Shown here: positions 621-15,334 of the stretch, piece by piece
Layout: each line of letters starts with the position of its first letter
How positions within the stretch are numbered: position 1 is the first letter of the stretch
Source: a virus
Taxonomy: Duplodnaviria > Heunggongvirae > Uroviricota > Caudoviricetes
Direction: 5' to 3' (one strand)
IMG/VR virus record: IMGVR_UViG_2778261418_000019
Span: 1 to 22,248 of that record
Length of the DNA stretch: 22,248 nt
Program-made: the position numbers and the translations under genes
Notes under the pieces: model-generated
What the model saw: only the letters and a program-made list of their open reading frames with translations
Database searches by the model: none
What the model was told of the DNA's origin: nothing

Positions 621-649
621 TTGACGTTAGATACTAATGATCCTAGTAT
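621..649 (+). promoter_or_regulatory. sigma70-like promoter for the rightward small-gene cluster
   Basis: TTGACG (621-626), 17-nt spacer, TAGTAT (644-649). The spacer and -10 contain the inverted repeat GATACTA (630-636) / TAGTATC (644-650). Confidence 0.4.
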
Positions 650-678: not shown

Positions 679-765
679 ATGACGTTCACTATCACTAAAG
701 AGCATGTACTATTTGTAGTCATCATAACCTTGTTACTAATCGTAGGGAGTATCGAAAATGTCTAA
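679..765 (+). CDS. 28-aa hydrophobic mini-protein (MTFTITKEHVLFVVIITLLLIVGSIENV)
   Basis: Not in the ORF track because it is under 60 aa. ATG at 679 has GAGGA 5 nt upstream. One predicted TM helix. The 3' end overlaps the next ATG at 758. Confidence 0.35.
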   Translation: MTFTITKEHVLFVVIITLLLIVGSIENV

Positions 766-928
766 GGGTGTATCTACTGATTTGATCATTAAGGCACATG
801 ATTTAGGATTCAAGATTAACGAGATTGATAATCGTGTAACGGGAATGTTTCATATAGTAATTAGTTCCCGTCATAATGAGCGTGAATTATTCAGTATGTT
901 TCTTATGTCTGGTGGCTTGTTCCATTAG
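758..928 (+). CDS. hypothetical 56-aa protein ending at an in-frame TAG; the frame stays open a further 40 codons to TAA 1049-1051
   Basis: ATG at 758 follows GGGAG with an 8-nt spacer. The stop is TAG at 926-928. The same frame has no stop and no start codon until 1051, 4 nt before a 16-bp hairpin. Confidence 0.4.
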   Translation: MSKGVSTDLIIKAHDLGFKINEIDNRVTGMFHIVISSRHNERELFSMFLMSGGLFH

Positions 929-1055
929 GAAAAGAACATCAATTTACCTAAGAGTGTAACCGATAAGATCACTATTGCCCGATTCGATGGTGAACGTGCT
1001 TTCACTTCATTACTAGAAGTAGTATCCGAAGAAATTACTAACGTACATTAATCAA

Positions 1056-1094
1056 TTAACACTACTAGTACATTTTCGGTACTAGTAGTGTTAA
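1056..1094. repeat. perfect 16-bp inverted repeat with a 7-nt loop (hairpin; terminator or operator candidate)
   Basis: TTAACACTACTAGTAC (1056-1071), ATTTTCG, GTACTAGTAGTGTTAA (1079-1094). No U-tract follows. Confidence 0.45.
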
Positions 1095-1106
1095 TATGGA
1101 CACTCT

Positions 1107-1208
1107 ATGAAAAAATTAACCTTTACTTACCTTGCGGCTGCAAATTTCTTTTTCTTCATTGCTGGGATCTTTACATGCGTATTAGTTGTATTGCTGGTGG
1201 ACTTATAA
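1107..1208 (+). CDS. 33-aa hydrophobic mini-protein (MKKLTFTYLAAANFFFFIAGIFTCVLVVLLVDL)
   Basis: Read directly from the sequence. KK followed by a long hydrophobic stretch looks like a single-pass membrane peptide. Only a weak GGA lies upstream. It overlaps the alternative frame of the 1088-1372 ORF. Confidence 0.3.
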   Translation: MKKLTFTYLAAANFFFFIAGIFTCVLVVLLVDL

Positions 1209-2240: not shown

Positions 2241-2247
2241 GAAGAAT

Positions 2248-2280
2248 AATAGCTACTACACAGATAAAGTAGTAGCTATT
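2248..2280 (+). terminator. perfect 12-bp stem-loop after the 1557-2240 gene (no U-tract)
   Basis: AATAGCTACTAC (2248-2259), loop ACAGATAAA, GTAGTAGCTATT (2269-2280). Confidence 0.4.
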
Positions 2281-2301
2281 ACTAAATATCATAGCTATAA
2301 T
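2273..2301 (+). promoter_or_regulatory. possible promoter for the lipoprotein cassette
   Basis: Consensus -10 TATAAT (2296-2301) sits 17 nt after a poor -35 TAGCTA (2273-2278) that lies in the hairpin arm. Confidence 0.3.
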
Positions 2302-3696: not shown

Positions 3697-3906
3697 ATGT
3701 CAGAGAAACTAATTAAAGCAATCCGTAATATTACGGAATATAATATGAGTATTGAGCGTATCATTGTTAGTACCGAAGACCAGCAACACTATTATAGTAT
3801 TAATCCTTATAAGGAAACTGTAATAAAGGTAGCAGACCAATACGGCAAACCAATTGAAGGAGAAGTAGAAATACCACAAATACCGCCATTATTCGATACT
3901 AACTAA
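3697..3906 (+). CDS. hypothetical protein (69 aa)
   Basis: AAGGGA RBS 7 nt upstream. A strong terminator follows directly. Confidence 0.6.
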   Translation: MSEKLIKAIRNITEYNMSIERIIVSTEDQQHYYSINPYKETVIKVADQYGKPIEGEVEIPQIPPLFDTN

Positions 3907-3912
3907 TAATAT

Positions 3913-3940
3913 AGCCCACTAATAAAAGTGGGCTTTTTTA
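3913..3940 (+). terminator. rho-independent terminator
   Basis: AGCCCAC (3913-3919), 8-nt loop, GTGGGCT (3928-3934), then TTTTTT. The stem sequence matches the hairpin at 303-323. Confidence 0.8.
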
Positions 3941-3951
3941 TTCCTGCCTAA

Positions 3952-3984: not shown

Positions 3985-4371
3985 ATGAATACAATCTACC
4001 TACACTTCCCTGATGGAACGTATAAGGCCATAGAAAGCACCACAGGCCGACAGGAATCAGGATACATACCATCACGCAAGGATAAGCTAATAACCGCTCA
4101 TATCATCACACAGGACGGTTACGAGCTATTCATAGATACCTATACACTAACGCTTAAGTATAAATACATTACATTAAACTACTCACGCTTCACCATAGGC
4201 CGTACTAATTACCCTATCAATGCACTAGATACATTCAGCGGTAGTGAGCTACCACACTTAACCCGACTAAGGGAACTACGCGACGAGATCTTACAGTACC
4301 GTACCGTAGATGGTCTGCCTATCTCTTATCGTTGTGATGTAATCGTTAGTAATATGGTGATACTCAAGTAG
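3985..4371 (+). CDS. hypothetical protein (128 aa)
   Basis: AGGAG RBS. Ends in TAG, followed two codons later by an in-frame TAA. No motif recognised. Confidence 0.65.
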   Translation: MNTIYLHFPDGTYKAIESTTGRQESGYIPSRKDKLITAHIITQDGYELFIDTYTLTLKYKYITLNYSRFTIGRTNYPINALDTFSGSELPHLTRLRELRDEILQYRTVDGLPISYRCDVIVSNMVILK

Positions 4372-7551: not shown

Positions 7552-9047
7552 TGTTCGGATGGAATAAAAAGAAAGTAGAAGAACCTAAACAAAAAGTTTT
7601 AGTACAGAAGCCAGTGAAGCTAATGAAGAATAACCCAATGAAACGAGCAATGACTTCCCTGAATTTGGGATCATCTAGCCCTGTTATCTCATTTGGCTTC
7701 ACTGGTGGTAATCAGGCTGGCAATATTAACGCCATCATTAACCGTACACTACCCGTAATGGTAGCCGTTAGTCGTGAACTATCAATCAAGAACGGTATTG
7801 TAAAAAAATATGTTAGTACGAATAGTGCAGGTGTAACGGGTGCAGATGGCCTATATATTCGCCCTTGTACGCATAGCTCCGACGACGAACAGGTTAACCA
7901 GTCAATCGATAAACAGATTGAAGATGCGTTTTACACGTGGGCCGAAGATCCTAAAGCGTTTTCCCGCTGCGGTACTCTAGATATCAGTACCTTCCAACGT
8001 CTGGTAGAACGTACTCGATCAGTAGATGGTGATTGTTTCATTCGCGTTCACAGTAAGCCAGGAGAGCTACCACAGATTGAGATTATCGATTCTATGCGTA
8101 TCTCGACCTATGAGAACCAATTACTACCAAGTGGTAACTATATTAGTAATGGTATTGAATTTGATATTAATACTAACCGACCTGTAGCTTATTGGGTAAC
8201 ACGTTATAACCCCATCATGTACAACTATATGATTGGTGAGCGTGAACGAGTACCAGCCGACGAGATCCTACACCTATTTCAGCAGGACTATCCAACACAG
8301 CAACGCGGTATTCCAGATGTGCATTCCGGTACTGAAAAGTTAAAAGAGTTAGAGGAATTTATGTCGGCGGCAATTACTTCCCGAAAGGTTGCAGCGTCCG
8401 CAATGGCCTTTATTACTAACCCTGATAGTGATGACGTACAGCTACTGACTGATGATAGTGTATCGTACTATGATCAGGACTATCTAAATCCGGCTGCAAT
8501 CGTAGAACTACAGGCAGGTCAGGATATTAAAACAGTAAACCCAACACAGACTACCGATGGTATACAAGAGTTTATTGATAACCAAATGATGATGATTGCA
8601 ATGGGATTAGATATTACAAAACAATCTCTAACTTCTGATACTAGTAATGCTTCATTCAGTGCTGCAAAGTTAACTGATAAATTACAGCAATCAACATTTA
8701 AAAGCCGTACTAATGCTTTAATTGTATCCGTACTGAAACCTCTTTATATTGCATGGCTAAAATCTGCAATGCTAAATAATAGTACATTAAGCAATTTAAA
8801 TTTTAGTGATTTTAATAAATTAACTCATGCACAATATGTACAGACGCGTCAAATCTCCCTAGATCCATATAAAGACCTTCAAACCGAAGTATTAGCAATT
8901 GATAACGGTTTAAAGAGTAAGGCAATGGTAATTTCGGAGATGGGATACGATCCGGTTATTGTCATGGAAGAAATCAACAAGGAAAATAAAGAAAATGGAA
9001 TTGAACAAGAACCAGACGAGGGCGATCAATCTAACGCAGATCAATAA
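7551..9047 (+). CDS. portal protein, lambda (gpB) family (498 aa)
   Basis: Its size, its position after the terminase and W genes, and its TAATG coupling all fit. Sequence character is typical of lambda-family portals. Confidence 0.88.
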   Translation: MFGWNKKKVEEPKQKVLVQKPVKLMKNNPMKRAMTSLNLGSSSPVISFGFTGGNQAGNINAIINRTLPVMVAVSRELSIKNGIVKKYVSTNSAGVTGADGLYIRPCTHSSDDEQVNQSIDKQIEDAFYTWAEDPKAFSRCGTLDISTFQRLVERTRSVDGDCFIRVHSKPGELPQIEIIDSMRISTYENQLLPSGNYISNGIEFDINTNRPVAYWVTRYNPIMYNYMIGERERVPADEILHLFQQDYPTQQRGIPDVHSGTEKLKELEEFMSAAITSRKVAASAMAFITNPDSDDVQLLTDDSVSYYDQDYLNPAAIVELQAGQDIKTVNPTQTTDGIQEFIDNQMMMIAMGLDITKQSLTSDTSNASFSAAKLTDKLQQSTFKSRTNALIVSVLKPLYIAWLKSAMLNNSTLSNLNFSDFNKLTHAQYVQTRQISLDPYKDLQTEVLAIDNGLKSKAMVISEMGYDPVIVMEEINKENKENGIEQEPDEGDQSNADQ

Positions 9048-10857
9048 TGCAATTGATGAAAACGATAGAACTGTAGAACTCTCTTTTGCCTCCGAAATTC
9101 CAGTAGTACGCGATATTAAAGGGACTCTCTATAATGAGATCCTTTTATGCAGTCCTGAAAACGTAGATTTAAGCCGTCTAAATGACGGTGCACCTGTACT
9201 AGTAGAACATGATGCAATGCGTCAAGTTGGTATAGTTGAAAATGCTCGCGTAGATATGGATAAAGTATGTCGTGCTACTGTACGTTTTAGTGCTTTGGGT
9301 ACTGCAAATACTATCTTCGGAATGATCGTAGAAGGTATTCGCCCTAAAGTATCAGTAGGTTATAACATCCTAGATTACTATCTAGATGGTAATGATCTAA
9401 TCGTTTCCAAATGGCAACCATACGAAGTATCAAGCGTATCCACTCCCGCAGATAATAGCGTAGGTGTAGGAAGATCACTAAATAGTAATGATGAAATTAC
9501 TTTAGAGGATCAACCCCAAATGGAACCAGAACAAAAAGAAGAACTAGTACAGGAAGTAAAAATTATTGAAAAAGCACCACAAGAAGAAGTGCAATCAGAA
9601 GTAGTTGAAGAATCCGTAGTAGTCGAAAGTGAAGAATCAGTAGAAGTAGTAGAAGTTGAAGTAATCGAGGAAGTACAAGAAGATGTACAACCGGAATTAG
9701 TAGAAGAACGTTCTATTGCAGTAACTGATATTCAAGAAAGTATAAATAAAGAAGTAGAAGCAAATCGTATTCGCGAACTTCAATCTATTTCTTCGGTACT
9801 AGGTGTTAGTACCGAAGAAGCAATTAAAAACGGTGTAAGCGTAGAAGACTTTAAACGCTCACTACTAAATAAAGATAACAAATCAATTGATAAGGAAATC
9901 AAACAAATGGATAAAAAATCTCTAATCGCCGAAGGTCTACGTAGTCTAAAAGGCGAAGCAAACGAACTAGCAACCTTCGAAAAAGGTACACGCGGTTATA
10001 ATGCAGATCTTAATGCTATGGTACGTTCTACTGCCGATACCACTTCTACCGTCACTGCCGCAGGTCTTGTAAAAGAAGAATTAGCAGATGCCTATATTCG
10101 CCAACTACTTGCACGTACCGTACTAGGTGAACTACCAGTTACCGTCTTTGGTGGTCTTGCTGGTCGTGGTAATTTCTCTATCCCACGTGCAAAAGGTATG
10201 AACCCAGTAGCACGTTTCTATGGTGAAGATGAAGCAGTATCCGATGGCTTCGAAACCTTCGATAAGATCACTCTAAAGCCTCGCATGTTCGCAGCAGGTA
10301 TCAAGATCACTAAAGCAATGCTACTAAGCAACGCAGCTACCGAACGTTATGTAACTGATGAGCTACTACGCCAATGTTCTAACGGTCTAGAATCAGCAGT
10401 ATTTACACAAATCGCTAATACCGTTCCAGTACAGGAAACCGCAGCAGTAGGTACAGTAACCGAAGCAGACGTACAGAAAGCAATTGAGGCACTAGGTGTA
10501 GCAAACGTTGATATCAACCGTTGTGTTGCAATCGTCCACCCTTCTATGCTCGCTAAACTACGTCAGTATGCAATTTTGGGTAACACCAGTGCAGTAAGTG
10601 CTGTAGCAGGCCATCGCTATGATATGTGGTTGTGTGACGAAGTACGCGTAATTGAATCTACTTTCGTAGCAGCAGATGCAATTCTAATTGGTGACTTCTC
10701 CGAACTAATCTTTACTAACTGGAACGAAGGCCAAGAGCTGGATTTCGACGATACTACCTACCGTGCAGCACAAACTATCGCAATCCGTAGCTTCCAGTAC
10801 CTTGATGTAGCTATTGCACACGAAGAATCATTCGTACAAATCAAACTAAAAGCATAA
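8995..10857 (+). CDS. fused prohead protease (HK97/S78-type), acidic linker with scaffold-like region, and HK97-fold major capsid protein (620 aa from ATG 8995)
   Basis: The N-terminal part has PVLVEHD...KVSVGY...YEVSSVSTPAD, the protease His and Ser blocks. Bases 9490-9710 encode an E/V-rich linker. The ANRIRELQSI...AIKNGVSVEDFKRSLL motif is scaffold- or delta-like. The C-terminal ~290 aa have HK97 MCP character (AILIGDFSELIFTNWNEGQELDFDD...IAIRSFQYLDVAI). The track start 8959 is a TTG. Confidence 0.85.
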   Translation: MELNKNQTRAINLTQINNAIDENDRTVELSFASEIPVVRDIKGTLYNEILLCSPENVDLSRLNDGAPVLVEHDAMRQVGIVENARVDMDKVCRATVRFSALGTANTIFGMIVEGIRPKVSVGYNILDYYLDGNDLIVSKWQPYEVSSVSTPADNSVGVGRSLNSNDEITLEDQPQMEPEQKEELVQEVKIIEKAPQEEVQSEVVEESVVVESEESVEVVEVEVIEEVQEDVQPELVEERSIAVTDIQESINKEVEANRIRELQSISSVLGVSTEEAIKNGVSVEDFKRSLLNKDNKSIDKEIKQMDKKSLIAEGLRSLKGEANELATFEKGTRGYNADLNAMVRSTADTTSTVTAAGLVKEELADAYIRQLLARTVLGELPVTVFGGLAGRGNFSIPRAKGMNPVARFYGEDEAVSDGFETFDKITLKPRMFAAGIKITKAMLLSNAATERYVTDELLRQCSNGLESAVFTQIANTVPVQETAAVGTVTEADVQKAIEALGVANVDINRCVAIVHPSMLAKLRQYAILGNTSAVSAVAGHRYDMWLCDEVRVIESTFVAADAILIGDFSELIFTNWNEGQELDFDDTTYRAAQTIAIRSFQYLDVAIAHEESFVQIKLKA

Positions 10858-11599: not shown

Positions 11600-15334
<3,735 letters not shown>

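What the first reader, a model, noticed from the sequence alone, without database searches (positions are those of the whole stretch)
758..1094. An in-frame amber codon splits a 96-codon frame that ends right at a 16-bp hairpin
The ORF from ATG 758 stops at TAG 926-928. The same frame then stays open for 40 more codons (EKNINLPKSVTDKITIARFDGERAFTSLLEVVSEEITNVH) to TAA 1049-1051, 4 nt before the perfect hairpin at 1056-1094. The 123-nt extension has no in-frame start codon of its own. TAG is rare as a stop here: among the large ORFs only 3985-4371 ends with it, and there a TAA follows two codons later. Possible explanations are a nonsense mutation (natural or laboratory amber), regulated readthrough giving two isoforms, or chance.
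Basis: seen in the sequence. Interest (0 to 1): 0.5.

Follow-up and report, generated by a model that had tools for sequence, protein, structure and literature searches.

The report
Natural amber mutation in prophage gene
The in-frame TAG is a real, inherited single-base nonsense mutation (TGG tryptophan to TAG) that cuts a conserved 97-codon gene of an E. coli prophage down to 56 codons, which is an ordinary gene knockout and not a recoding signal.

Summary
ATG 758 runs to TAG 926-928, the same frame stays open to TAA 1049-1051, and a perfect 17-bp hairpin follows at 1055-1095.

The window is a roughly 33-kb E. coli prophage inserted in yegD. Close relatives (97-98% nt identity) carry TGG where the window has TAG, and they encode one 97-aa protein. 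All 15 listed variants of a 28-member cluster from E. coli, Shigella and E. marmotae are 97 aa. Six diverged homologs (28-55% identity, 95-97 aa) have Trp at this position, or Phe in the most distant one.

The 40 codons after the TAG are protein-coding in those relatives. N60, L63, P64 and L86 are invariant, and dN/dS is 0.10-0.34. A confident AlphaFold model (pLDDT 90.5) puts codon 57 inside beta-strand 4, so truncation removes strand 5 and the long C-terminal helix.

The TAG allele is neither a sequencing error nor a laboratory amber. All 18 copies examined have it (17 independent records plus the window), and its exact 56-aa product is on 36 contigs. No revertant was found. The same lineage also has a frameshifted methyltransferase gene.

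Programmed readthrough, code reassignment and chance are not supported. The finding is a natural nonsense allele of an accessory gene of unknown function, and it is of low interest.

The parts
621..649 (+). Sigma-70-like promoter match (TTGACG-17-TAGTAT) upstream of the small-ORF/97-codon gene pair. It faces a divergent promoter-like site on the minus strand at 584-557.
   Evidence: This is a consensus match only, 9 of 12 positions, and the number of such sites in the region is not above the shuffle expectation. Function is inferred from position.
679..765 (+). Unannotated 28-codon hydrophobic upstream ORF (MTFTITKEHVLFVVIITLLLIVGSIENV). Its TAA overlaps the ATG of the 97-codon gene (ATGTCTAA), which suggests translational coupling.
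   Evidence: The peptide M(T/A)(F/I)TITKEHV(F/L)... is conserved in the same position in four diverged loci that share no detectable or only patchy nucleotide similarity with the window in blastn (L009, L011, L022, L023).
744..749 (+). Shine-Dalgarno-like AGGGAG, 8 nt before ATG 758.
   Evidence: Read from the sequence.
758..925 (+). Retained N-terminal 56 codons of the gene. In the full-length model they form helix 1, strands 1-3 and the first half of strand 4.
   Evidence: The exact 56-aa product is on 36 contigs in public assemblies.
926..928 (+). Premature amber codon TAG, derived from TGG (Trp57) by a G-to-A transition at position 927.
   Evidence: Position 927 is A in all 18 TAG-lineage copies and G in all 6 intact E. 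coli copies. Trp is present in all aligned homologs except the most distant, which has Phe.
929..1051 (+). Now-untranslated remnant of codons 58-97 plus the original TAA stop (1049-1051). In intact relatives it encodes the rest of strand 4, a short helix, strand 5 and the long C-terminal helix.
   Evidence: N60, L63, P64 and L86 are invariant and R75 nearly so. dN/dS is 0.10 (L009 vs L011) and 0.34 (L011 vs L023).
1055..1095 (+). Perfect 17-bp stem with a 7-nt loop, just after the original stop, with no T-run after it. It is imperfect in the intact-allele lineages, and its loop is inverted relative to theirs. It is probably an RNA stem-loop marking the gene's 3' end, but its role is undetermined and it is unrelated to the amber codon.
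   Evidence: not called as a terminator; no Rfam match; z = -5.9.
1107..1208 (+). 33-codon hydrophobic small ORF following the hairpin (MKKLTFTYLAAANFFFFIAGIFTCVLVVLLVDL).
   Evidence: A similar peptide is encoded at the same place in L022. This ORF and the hairpin are both missing from the Enterobacter-type loci L009, L011 and L023.

Best explanation
The region 758-1051 is one gene, not two pieces that abut by chance. It is the first sizeable gene of a rightward operon in a roughly 33-kb temperate phage integrated in E. coli yegD. In its ancestral form it encodes a 97-residue compact alpha/beta protein of unknown function.

In the sub-lineage that includes this window, a single G-to-A transition at position 927 changed Trp57 (TGG) to amber (TAG). 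Ribosomes in an ordinary host with no amber suppressor therefore terminate after 56 residues. The product ends in the middle of beta-strand 4 and lacks strand 5 and the C-terminal helix that packs on the sheet, so the fragment is most likely unfolded or degraded and inactive.

The 123 nt downstream, up to the old TAA, is an untranslated remnant. It still looks coding because the mutation is young relative to the substitution rate. The allele is inherited stably with the prophage, which indicates that the gene is dispensable for prophage carriage.

Shown: the ancestral state, the single-base change, conservation of the C-terminal part in relatives, and the spread of the allele.
Inferred: loss of function of the fragment, absence of suppression in the hosts, and dispensability.
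For: 1. A sense codon in relatives. L001 (IMG/VR provirus, 96.9% nt identity) reads TTCCATTGGGAAAAG where the window reads TTCCATTAGGAAAAG. Position 927 is G in six intact E. coli copies and A in all TAG copies. RefSeq annotates the intact 97-aa CDS (WP_113078672.1) in NZ_CM135810.1. In NZ_CM151386.1, which is 99.9% identical to the window, nothing is annotated over the site.

2. Family architecture. A 28-member cluster from E. coli, Shigella and E. marmotae has all 15 listed members at 97 aa. Diverged homologs of 95-97 aa at 28-55% identity were found. In alignment A1, W57 is at least 90% conserved, and N60, L63, P64 and L86 after it are invariant. phrog_6147 matches weakly but over the full length.

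3. Purifying selection on codons 58-97 in intact homologs. dN/dS is 0.10 and 0.34.

4. Structure. The AlphaFold2 model has pLDDT 90.5 and pTM 0.82, with strand 4 at residues 54-60, strand 5 at 75-77 and a helix at 78-96.

5. A real, inherited allele. The exact 56-aa product is listed in 47 index blocks and on 36 contigs. All 18 copies examined (17 independent records plus the window) carry the TAG. They include sub-lineages with further changes: G17R, G29R, H56N.

6. A second disrupted gene in the same lineage. A frameshifted adenine-methyltransferase-like gene, once its two frames are fused, aligns as a single piece over residues 1-239 to 287 phage records.

7. No recoding apparatus. The window has no tRNA genes, all large ORFs are open under the standard code, and this is the only in-frame TAG noticed in it.
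Against: There is no direct evidence that the fragment is inactive or that TAG is not partly read through in the natural hosts. The hosts' tRNA sets were not examined. The supE-type allele exists in 155 of 5426 complete E. coli genomes, and I could not determine whether NZ_CM151386.1 is among them.

The downstream remnant shows no degenerative change. It has one would-be-synonymous substitution across 18 copies. That fits a young pseudogene but equally fits continued constraint.

The allele is common and has persisted through sub-lineage diversification without reversion, so selection for the truncated state cannot be excluded.

Belinky et al. 2021 (PMC7918605) argue that in-frame stops in bacterial genes often persist under weak purifying selection.
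Confidence: 0.88

Rival explanations
1. Leaky or suppressed amber. The TAG is read through, by a host or phage suppressor tRNA or by near-cognate decoding. The result would be a small amount of full-length protein alongside the 56-aa fragment, so the stop would act as an expression-dampening switch or a two-isoform device.
For: The downstream frame is still intact in all 18 copies. The allele is widespread and has not reverted. In-frame stops with retained constraint have been reported in bacteria (PMC7918605). supE-type alleles exist in E. coli genomes.
Against: The stop is derived and confined to one shallow sub-lineage, and every other homolog has a sense codon. No tRNA gene is in the window. 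No structure lies next to the stop, since the only strong hairpin starts 127 nt downstream, after the old TAA. The 60 supE carriers shown, out of 155, are largely recognisable laboratory K-12 derivatives such as C600, DH5alpha, DH1 and MG1655. The intact downstream frame has no statistical weight, with one substitution in 123 nt across 18 copies. From general knowledge, UAG followed by G is not a notably weak E. coli termination signal (Poole, Brown and Tate 1995, recalled and not checked here).
Confidence: 0.05
2. Selected truncation. The 56-aa fragment, or simple loss of the full-length protein, is advantageous. This could arise because the intact early protein is toxic to the lysogen or promotes induction. 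The nonsense allele would then have spread by selection and not by drift.
For: The allele makes up a sizeable share of known copies. It is on 36 contigs, against 74 for the commonest intact variant. It persists across sub-lineages. The structural genes of the same prophage remain open, so decay is not general.
Against: There is no functional information on the protein: no Pfam hit and only generic fold matches. A second gene, the methyltransferase, is also broken in this lineage, as expected from drift. Clonal expansion of host strains explains the frequency equally well. Changes at otherwise conserved residues (G29R, H56N) occur within the retained part, which argues against a constrained functional fragment, although the numbers are tiny.
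Confidence: 0.06
3. Artefact or chance. The TAG is a sequencing or assembly error, or the two open stretches adjoin in frame by coincidence.
For: A 40-codon stop-free run has a 1-6% chance probability in this AT-rich sequence (from the counts).
Against: The identical TAG appears in all 18 copies examined: 17 independent records (a complete RefSeq chromosome, an NCBI draft assembly and 15 Logan assemblies) plus the window. The two halves align end to end with 95-97-aa homologs.
Confidence: 0.01

Closest known systems
Nonsense-mutation pseudogenes in prophages (early prophage decay or domestication; general concept, e.g. Bobay et al. 2014 PNAS, cited from memory)
   Same: A single-base premature stop sits in an accessory prophage gene whose intact orthologs circulate in sister lineages. 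The allele is inherited vertically with the prophage. A second disrupted gene, the frameshifted methyltransferase, lies in the same element.
   Different: The prophage otherwise looks complete. The terminase, portal, capsid, tail and lysis genes are all open. This is therefore at most the very beginning of decay, or simply loss of a dispensable gene in a still-viable phage.
Persisting in-frame stop codons in bacterial genes with proposed readthrough (Belinky et al. 2021, PMC7918605)
   Same: An in-frame TAG in an otherwise conserved ORF is shared by several related genomes, with the downstream frame still open.
   Different: That paper's argument rests on stops shared between species and on a measurable dN/dS below 1 around them. 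Here the stop is confined to one shallow lineage with almost no variation, so no such signal can be measured. All deeper relatives carry TGG.
Classical laboratory amber mutants of phages (T4, lambda, T7 'am' alleles)
   Same: Mechanistically identical. A sense codon, here TGG, is converted to TAG in a phage gene and could in principle be suppressed in a supE, supF or supD host.
   Different: This allele was not made or selected in a laboratory. It occurs in clinical and environmental isolates and in public sequencing runs from several archives (ERR, SRR and DRR accessions).
TAG-recoded phages (amber reassigned to a sense codon, with phage-encoded suppressor tRNA)
   Same: There is an in-frame TAG in a phage gene, and TAG is rare as a true terminator in the genome.
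   Different: Only one in-frame TAG was found, the window has no suppressor tRNA, and all other genes are open under the standard code. The low use of TAG stops simply follows the TAA preference of an AT-rich (38.7% GC) genome.
Small alpha/beta phage proteins with an RWD/UBC-like sandwich fold (T4 MotA C-terminal domain, T7 gp1.2)

Membership tests
Nonsense-disrupted allele (pseudogene) of an intact gene family | Orthologs carry a sense codon at the position of the stop | tested here: met
   TGG is present in L001, L003 and L005-L008. W57 is present in 20 of 21 aligned proteins, with F in the most distant.
Nonsense-disrupted allele (pseudogene) of an intact gene family | The sequence after the stop, in the same frame, is homologous to the C-terminal part of the intact proteins | tested here: met
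   The remnant has at most one would-be amino-acid difference (T83A) from intact E. coli alleles over codons 58-97. N60, L63, P64 and L86 are invariant family-wide. dN/dS is 0.10-0.34 in intact homologs.
Nonsense-disrupted allele (pseudogene) of an intact gene family | The truncation removes parts required for the fold or function | tested here: met
   In the AlphaFold2 model (pLDDT 90.5), the stop falls within strand 4 (residues 54-60). Strand 5 and helix 78-96 are lost. This rests on a prediction, not on experiment.
Nonsense-disrupted allele (pseudogene) of an intact gene family | Relaxed selection, meaning degenerative changes, after the disruption | tested here: inconclusive
   Across 18 copies there are three non-synonymous changes before the stop (G17R, G29R, H56N) and one would-be-synonymous change after it. 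That is too few events to tell.
Programmed stop-codon readthrough | The stop codon is conserved at the same position among homologs | tested here: not met
   The stop is present only in one shallow E. coli prophage sub-lineage. All other homologs have Trp or Phe codons.
Programmed stop-codon readthrough | A stimulatory context or RNA structure lies immediately 3' of the stop | tested here: not met
   No inverted repeat lies near 929-960. The only strong hairpin begins 127 nt downstream, beyond the old TAA. No Rfam match was found.
Programmed stop-codon readthrough | Two protein isoforms are produced | not testable with these tools
   This needs proteomics or tagged constructs in a carrier strain.
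Stop-codon reassignment (TAG read as sense) in phages | Many in-frame TAG codons occur across genes, especially late genes | tested here: not met
   All structural ORFs are open under table 11. This is the single in-frame TAG found in the window.
Stop-codon reassignment (TAG read as sense) in phages | A phage-encoded suppressor tRNA (CUA anticodon) | tested here: not met
   ARAGORN finds no tRNA gene in the 22-kb window. The remaining ~11 kb of the prophage carries no annotated tRNA.
Laboratory amber mutant | The allele is restricted to a laboratory stock or constructed strain | tested here: not met
   The allele is present in a human stool isolate from Canada, in NCBI assembly GCA_002467205.1, and in 15 independent Logan run assemblies.
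PHROG phrog_6147 (unknown function) | A significant profile match over the full length | tested here: inconclusive
   E = 0.005 for P0001 and 0.017 for P0003, covering profile positions 8-89 of 91. This is weak but consistent across two diverged members.

The most novel reading that the evidence does not exclude
The amber allele is not a dead gene but a tolerated or selected 'dimmer'. Low-level natural UAG readthrough, or suppressor-carrying hosts, would yield trace amounts of the full-length early protein. That would tune a toxic or induction-promoting function and explain why the allele is common, unreverted and still open downstream. This is the kind of persisting in-frame stop proposed by Belinky et al. 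2021.
Probability: 0.04. Interest if true: 0.45.

Novelty: new member of a known kind. Interest (0 to 1): 0.12.

Why it matters
The practical consequence is for annotation. The region 758-1051 should be annotated as one disrupted gene, a pseudogene allele of the WP_113078672/WP_038994346 family. RefSeq instead leaves the stretch empty in NZ_CM151386.1, and other gene callers report a 56-aa ORF there.

The finding also shows that this small, uncharacterised but conserved early protein is dispensable for prophage carriage. That is a useful constraint when its function is eventually studied. The TGG and TAG lineages provide a ready-made natural knockout pair for such a test.

It says nothing new about decoding or gene regulation.

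Tried and rejected
1. DNA searches of 500-1400 against GenBank phages found nothing, in both megablast and blastn modes. tblastn of the conceptual product found only chance hits at E = 9. The element is absent from the isolated-phage collection, and its TerL is only 37% identical to the nearest phage, DCP80.

2. The genome-contig scan with the 97-aa protein returned no confirmed locus. The species-representative E. coli genome evidently lacks the prophage.

3. Pfam gave no hit for the protein or its small neighbours. PHROGs gave only a weak hit to a family of unknown function.

5. The long repeat proteins hit by phmmer (P0022, P0024, P0025) were judged spurious matches driven by repeats. P0024 is a repeat protein and P0025 has HSP20-like repeats.

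6. A supE (glnV CUA) search across complete E. coli genomes found 155 carriers. It could not resolve whether the carrier strain NZ_CM151386.1 is one of them, because only 60 rows are shown.

7. Rfam found no match for the hairpin or its surroundings, and the terminator scan did not call it because there is no T-run.

8. Two literature searches on natural amber suppressors and prophage pseudogenes gave one relevant paper, PMC7918605.

9. An exact-sequence look-up for a W57 or Q57 version of this precise allele, which would be the immediate ancestor or a revertant, found neither in the collection.

Full report
**Observation.** The sequence is as described. ATG 758 opens a frame that meets TAG at 926-928 and then runs for 40 more sense codons to TAA 1049-1051. 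None of those 40 codons is ATG, GTG or TTG. A perfect inverted repeat follows, with 17-nt arms at 1055-1071 and 1079-1095 and a 7-nt loop. As RNA it folds far better than shuffles, at -24.7 kcal/mol with z = -5.9. TAG is rare as a terminator here. Among + strand ORFs of 50 or more codons, 23 end in TAA, 4 in TGA and 4 in TAG. Two of the TAG ORFs are nested inside larger genes, which leaves 3985-4371 (TAG ATT GCA TAA) and this one. The gene has a Shine-Dalgarno-like AGGGAG 8 nt upstream of the ATG.

**What the window is.** Nothing similar exists among deposited phage genomes at the DNA level. The large terminase is only 37% identical to its nearest phage relative. The region does match two complete E. 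coli chromosomes: NZ_CM151386.1 at 99.9% and NZ_CM135810.1 at 98.0%. In NZ_CM151386.1 the element is a prophage of about 33 kb that splits yegD into two annotated halves. It has a serine recombinase at one end and a full set of open structural and lysis genes.

**The decisive comparison.** An IMG/VR provirus (L001, 96.9% nt identity) reads TGG where the window reads TAG. The same holds for NZ_CM135810.1, where RefSeq annotates an intact 97-aa CDS, and for four Logan contigs. In NZ_CM151386.1, which has the TAG, RefSeq annotates nothing across the site.

A search of 5.8 billion proteins found a 28-member cluster from E. coli, Shigella and E. marmotae. All 15 listed members are 97 aa. It also found Enterobacter homologs of 97 aa at 44-45% identity. 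An exhaustive phmmer search added four more small homologs of 95-97 aa (31-55% identity by phmmer; 28-53% in alignment A1).

In the 21-sequence alignment, Trp57 is present everywhere except the most distant member, which has Phe. Conservation continues past it, with N60, L63, P64 and L86 invariant and R75 nearly so. Nei-Gojobori estimates for codons 58-97 give dN/dS of 0.10 (L009 vs L011) and 0.34 (L011 vs L023). These are comparable to the N-terminal part. The 123-nt 'extension' is therefore the genuine C-terminal coding region of a 97-codon gene, and the TAG is a derived TGG-to-TAG transition.

**Consequence for the protein.** AlphaFold2 on this alignment gives a confident single-domain model (pLDDT 90.5, pTM 0.82). 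Its elements are helix 7-15, strands 18-25, 30-37, 43-50 and 54-60, a short helix 65-68, strand 75-77 and helix 78-96. The stop falls inside strand 4. The 56-residue product lacks half of that strand, all of strand 5 and the long C-terminal helix. I infer that it cannot adopt the native fold.

**Is the TAG allele real, and how widespread is it?** The exact 56-aa product is indexed in 47 blocks of the assembly collection and on 36 contigs. I examined 18 copies. These are 17 independent records plus the window: one complete RefSeq chromosome, one NCBI draft assembly and 15 Logan assemblies. All have A at 927.

The lineage has diversified a little. G17R is present in six copies, G29R in one and H56N in two. 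There is one would-be-synonymous change downstream, at position 994, and mosaic variation begins about 180 nt past the old stop. No W57 or Q57 version of this exact allele is on record, so neither the immediate ancestor nor a revertant was seen. This rules out sequencing error and a laboratory origin. It also shows that the allele has been transmitted stably.

**Readthrough, recoding and other alternatives.** Several observations argue against programmed readthrough. The stop is not conserved outside this shallow lineage, and no structure lies near it. The hairpin starts 127 nt downstream, after the ancestral TAA, and it also exists, in imperfect form, in the lineages that have TGG. The window encodes no tRNA, and the rest of the prophage has none annotated.

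Genome-wide reassignment of TAG is excluded, because all other genes are open under the standard code.

Host suppression could not be tested directly. A supE-type glnV allele occurs in 155 of 5426 complete E. coli genomes. The 60 shown are largely recognisable laboratory K-12 derivatives, and the carrier strain's status was not resolvable.

The intactness of the downstream frame has no weight, with only one substitution among 18 copies. Belinky et al. (PMC7918605) argue that in-frame stops can persist under constraint. Their criterion of shared stops with measurable dN/dS below 1 cannot be applied here for lack of variation.

**Supporting context.** The same sub-lineage carries a second broken gene about 1 kb upstream of the window. 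RefSeq annotates it as two 'class I SAM-dependent methyltransferase' CDSs. These are the two frames of one gene. When the frames are joined at the CAGIG motif, the 243-aa product aligns as a single piece over residues 1-239 to 287 phage records. Two inactivating lesions in accessory genes, with an otherwise open structural module, fit early mutational erosion of a resident prophage, or loss of dispensable genes in a still-viable phage.

**The hairpin.** It sits just after the ancestral stop and has no T-run. It matches no Rfam family and is not called as a terminator. Relative to the TGG lineages, the window's version is perfected and its loop is inverted. It matches the reverse complement of the intact-lineage hairpin at 38 of 41 positions, against 32 of 41 in the forward sense. 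That is the signature of template switching at a quasi-palindrome, a mechanism I cite from general knowledge. The hairpin and the following 33-codon hydrophobic ORF are both absent from the Enterobacter-type loci. I see no functional link between the hairpin and the amber codon. They co-occur because they mark the same lineage.

**Verdict.** The finding is a correctly observed natural nonsense allele (Trp57 to amber) of a conserved prophage gene of unknown function. It is an ordinary kind of event and of low interest. It is useful mainly for annotation and as a natural knockout.

Noticed in passing
window 679-765 (+): An unannotated 28-codon hydrophobic ORF (MTFTITKEHVLFVVIITLLLIVGSIENV) has a stop that overlaps the ATG at 758. 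The peptide M(T/A)(F/I)TITKEHV(F/L)... plus a hydrophobic tail is conserved upstream of the homologous gene in four diverged loci (L009, L011, L022, L023) that share no detectable or only patchy nucleotide similarity with the window in blastn. It is probably a real, translationally coupled mini-protein or leader peptide.
   Followed up: partly
window 1055-1095: In the TAG lineage the hairpin is a perfect 17-bp stem, and its loop (ATTTTCG) is close to the reverse complement of the loop in the TGG lineages (CGGAAAT). It matches 38/41 to the reverse complement and 32/41 forward. The TGG lineages have one or two stem mismatches. This looks like quasi-palindrome correction and loop inversion by template switching. 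Three TAG-lineage copies have since lost the closing pair (G1079C).
   Followed up: partly
L021:25609-26341 (NZ_CM151386.1 1815608-1816340, about 1 kb upstream of window position 1): RefSeq annotates two adjacent 'class I SAM-dependent methyltransferase' CDSs that are one gene split by a frameshift, consistent with a 1-nt insertion near the CAGIG motif. The fused 243-aa translation aligns in one piece to methyltransferases of 287 phages at about 49% identity. Nearly all TAG-lineage loci that cover this region show the same split.
   Followed up: yes
L021 and L030 (NZ_CM151386.1 about 1811417-1844640): The element is a prophage of about 33 kb inserted within yegD, whose two halves are annotated as partial pseudogenes. 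It has a 532-aa serine recombinase at the left end. No replication or repressor genes are recognisable, and the early region is almost all hypothetical proteins. Only 2 of 5426 complete E. coli genomes carry it.
   Followed up: partly
window 1107-1208 (+): A 33-codon hydrophobic ORF sits right after the hairpin. A similar peptide (MISKFKFTLVQAASTFFLMAGVVLCVLIALLAA) is encoded at the same place in L022. In the Enterobacter-type loci (L009, L011, L023) this ORF and the hairpin are missing, and the 97-aa gene abuts the next gene directly.
   Followed up: partly
window 2247-2281; also 303-323 and 3905-3942: A second perfect hairpin (13-bp arms, 9-nt loop, TAATAGCTACTAC...GTAGTAGCTATTA) lies 6 nt after the stop of the 1518/1557-2240 gene, again without a T-run. 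Canonical GC-rich terminator hairpins (AAGCCCAC...GTGGGCTT and AGCCCACT...AGTGGGCT) follow the ORFs ending at 300 and 3906.
   Followed up: no
P0024 (577 aa, metagenomic), not in the window: phmmer matched the 97-aa protein to five tandem repeats of a secreted repeat protein (…YWHLFLMNGATVTPNYNISLP…), which resemble the FSMFLMSGGLFHWEKNINLP segment (E = 6.8e-5). I treated it as a repeat-inflated chance match, but the motif similarity is striking.
   Followed up: no
protein collection, cluster of P0026: The 56-aa truncated product is clustered at '90% identity' with unrelated proteins of 212-489 aa, such as an Actinoallomurus 'coagulation factor 5/8 type' protein. This appears to be a clustering artefact. 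It explains why the first protein search did not return the window's own 56-aa product.
   Followed up: no
window 8959-10857 and 11600-15334: The gene annotated as major capsid protein is unusually long (about 620-632 aa). A 1244-aa 'tail fiber domain-containing' ORF sits between the head-tail joining genes and the tail tube gene, which is an unusual position.
   Followed up: no
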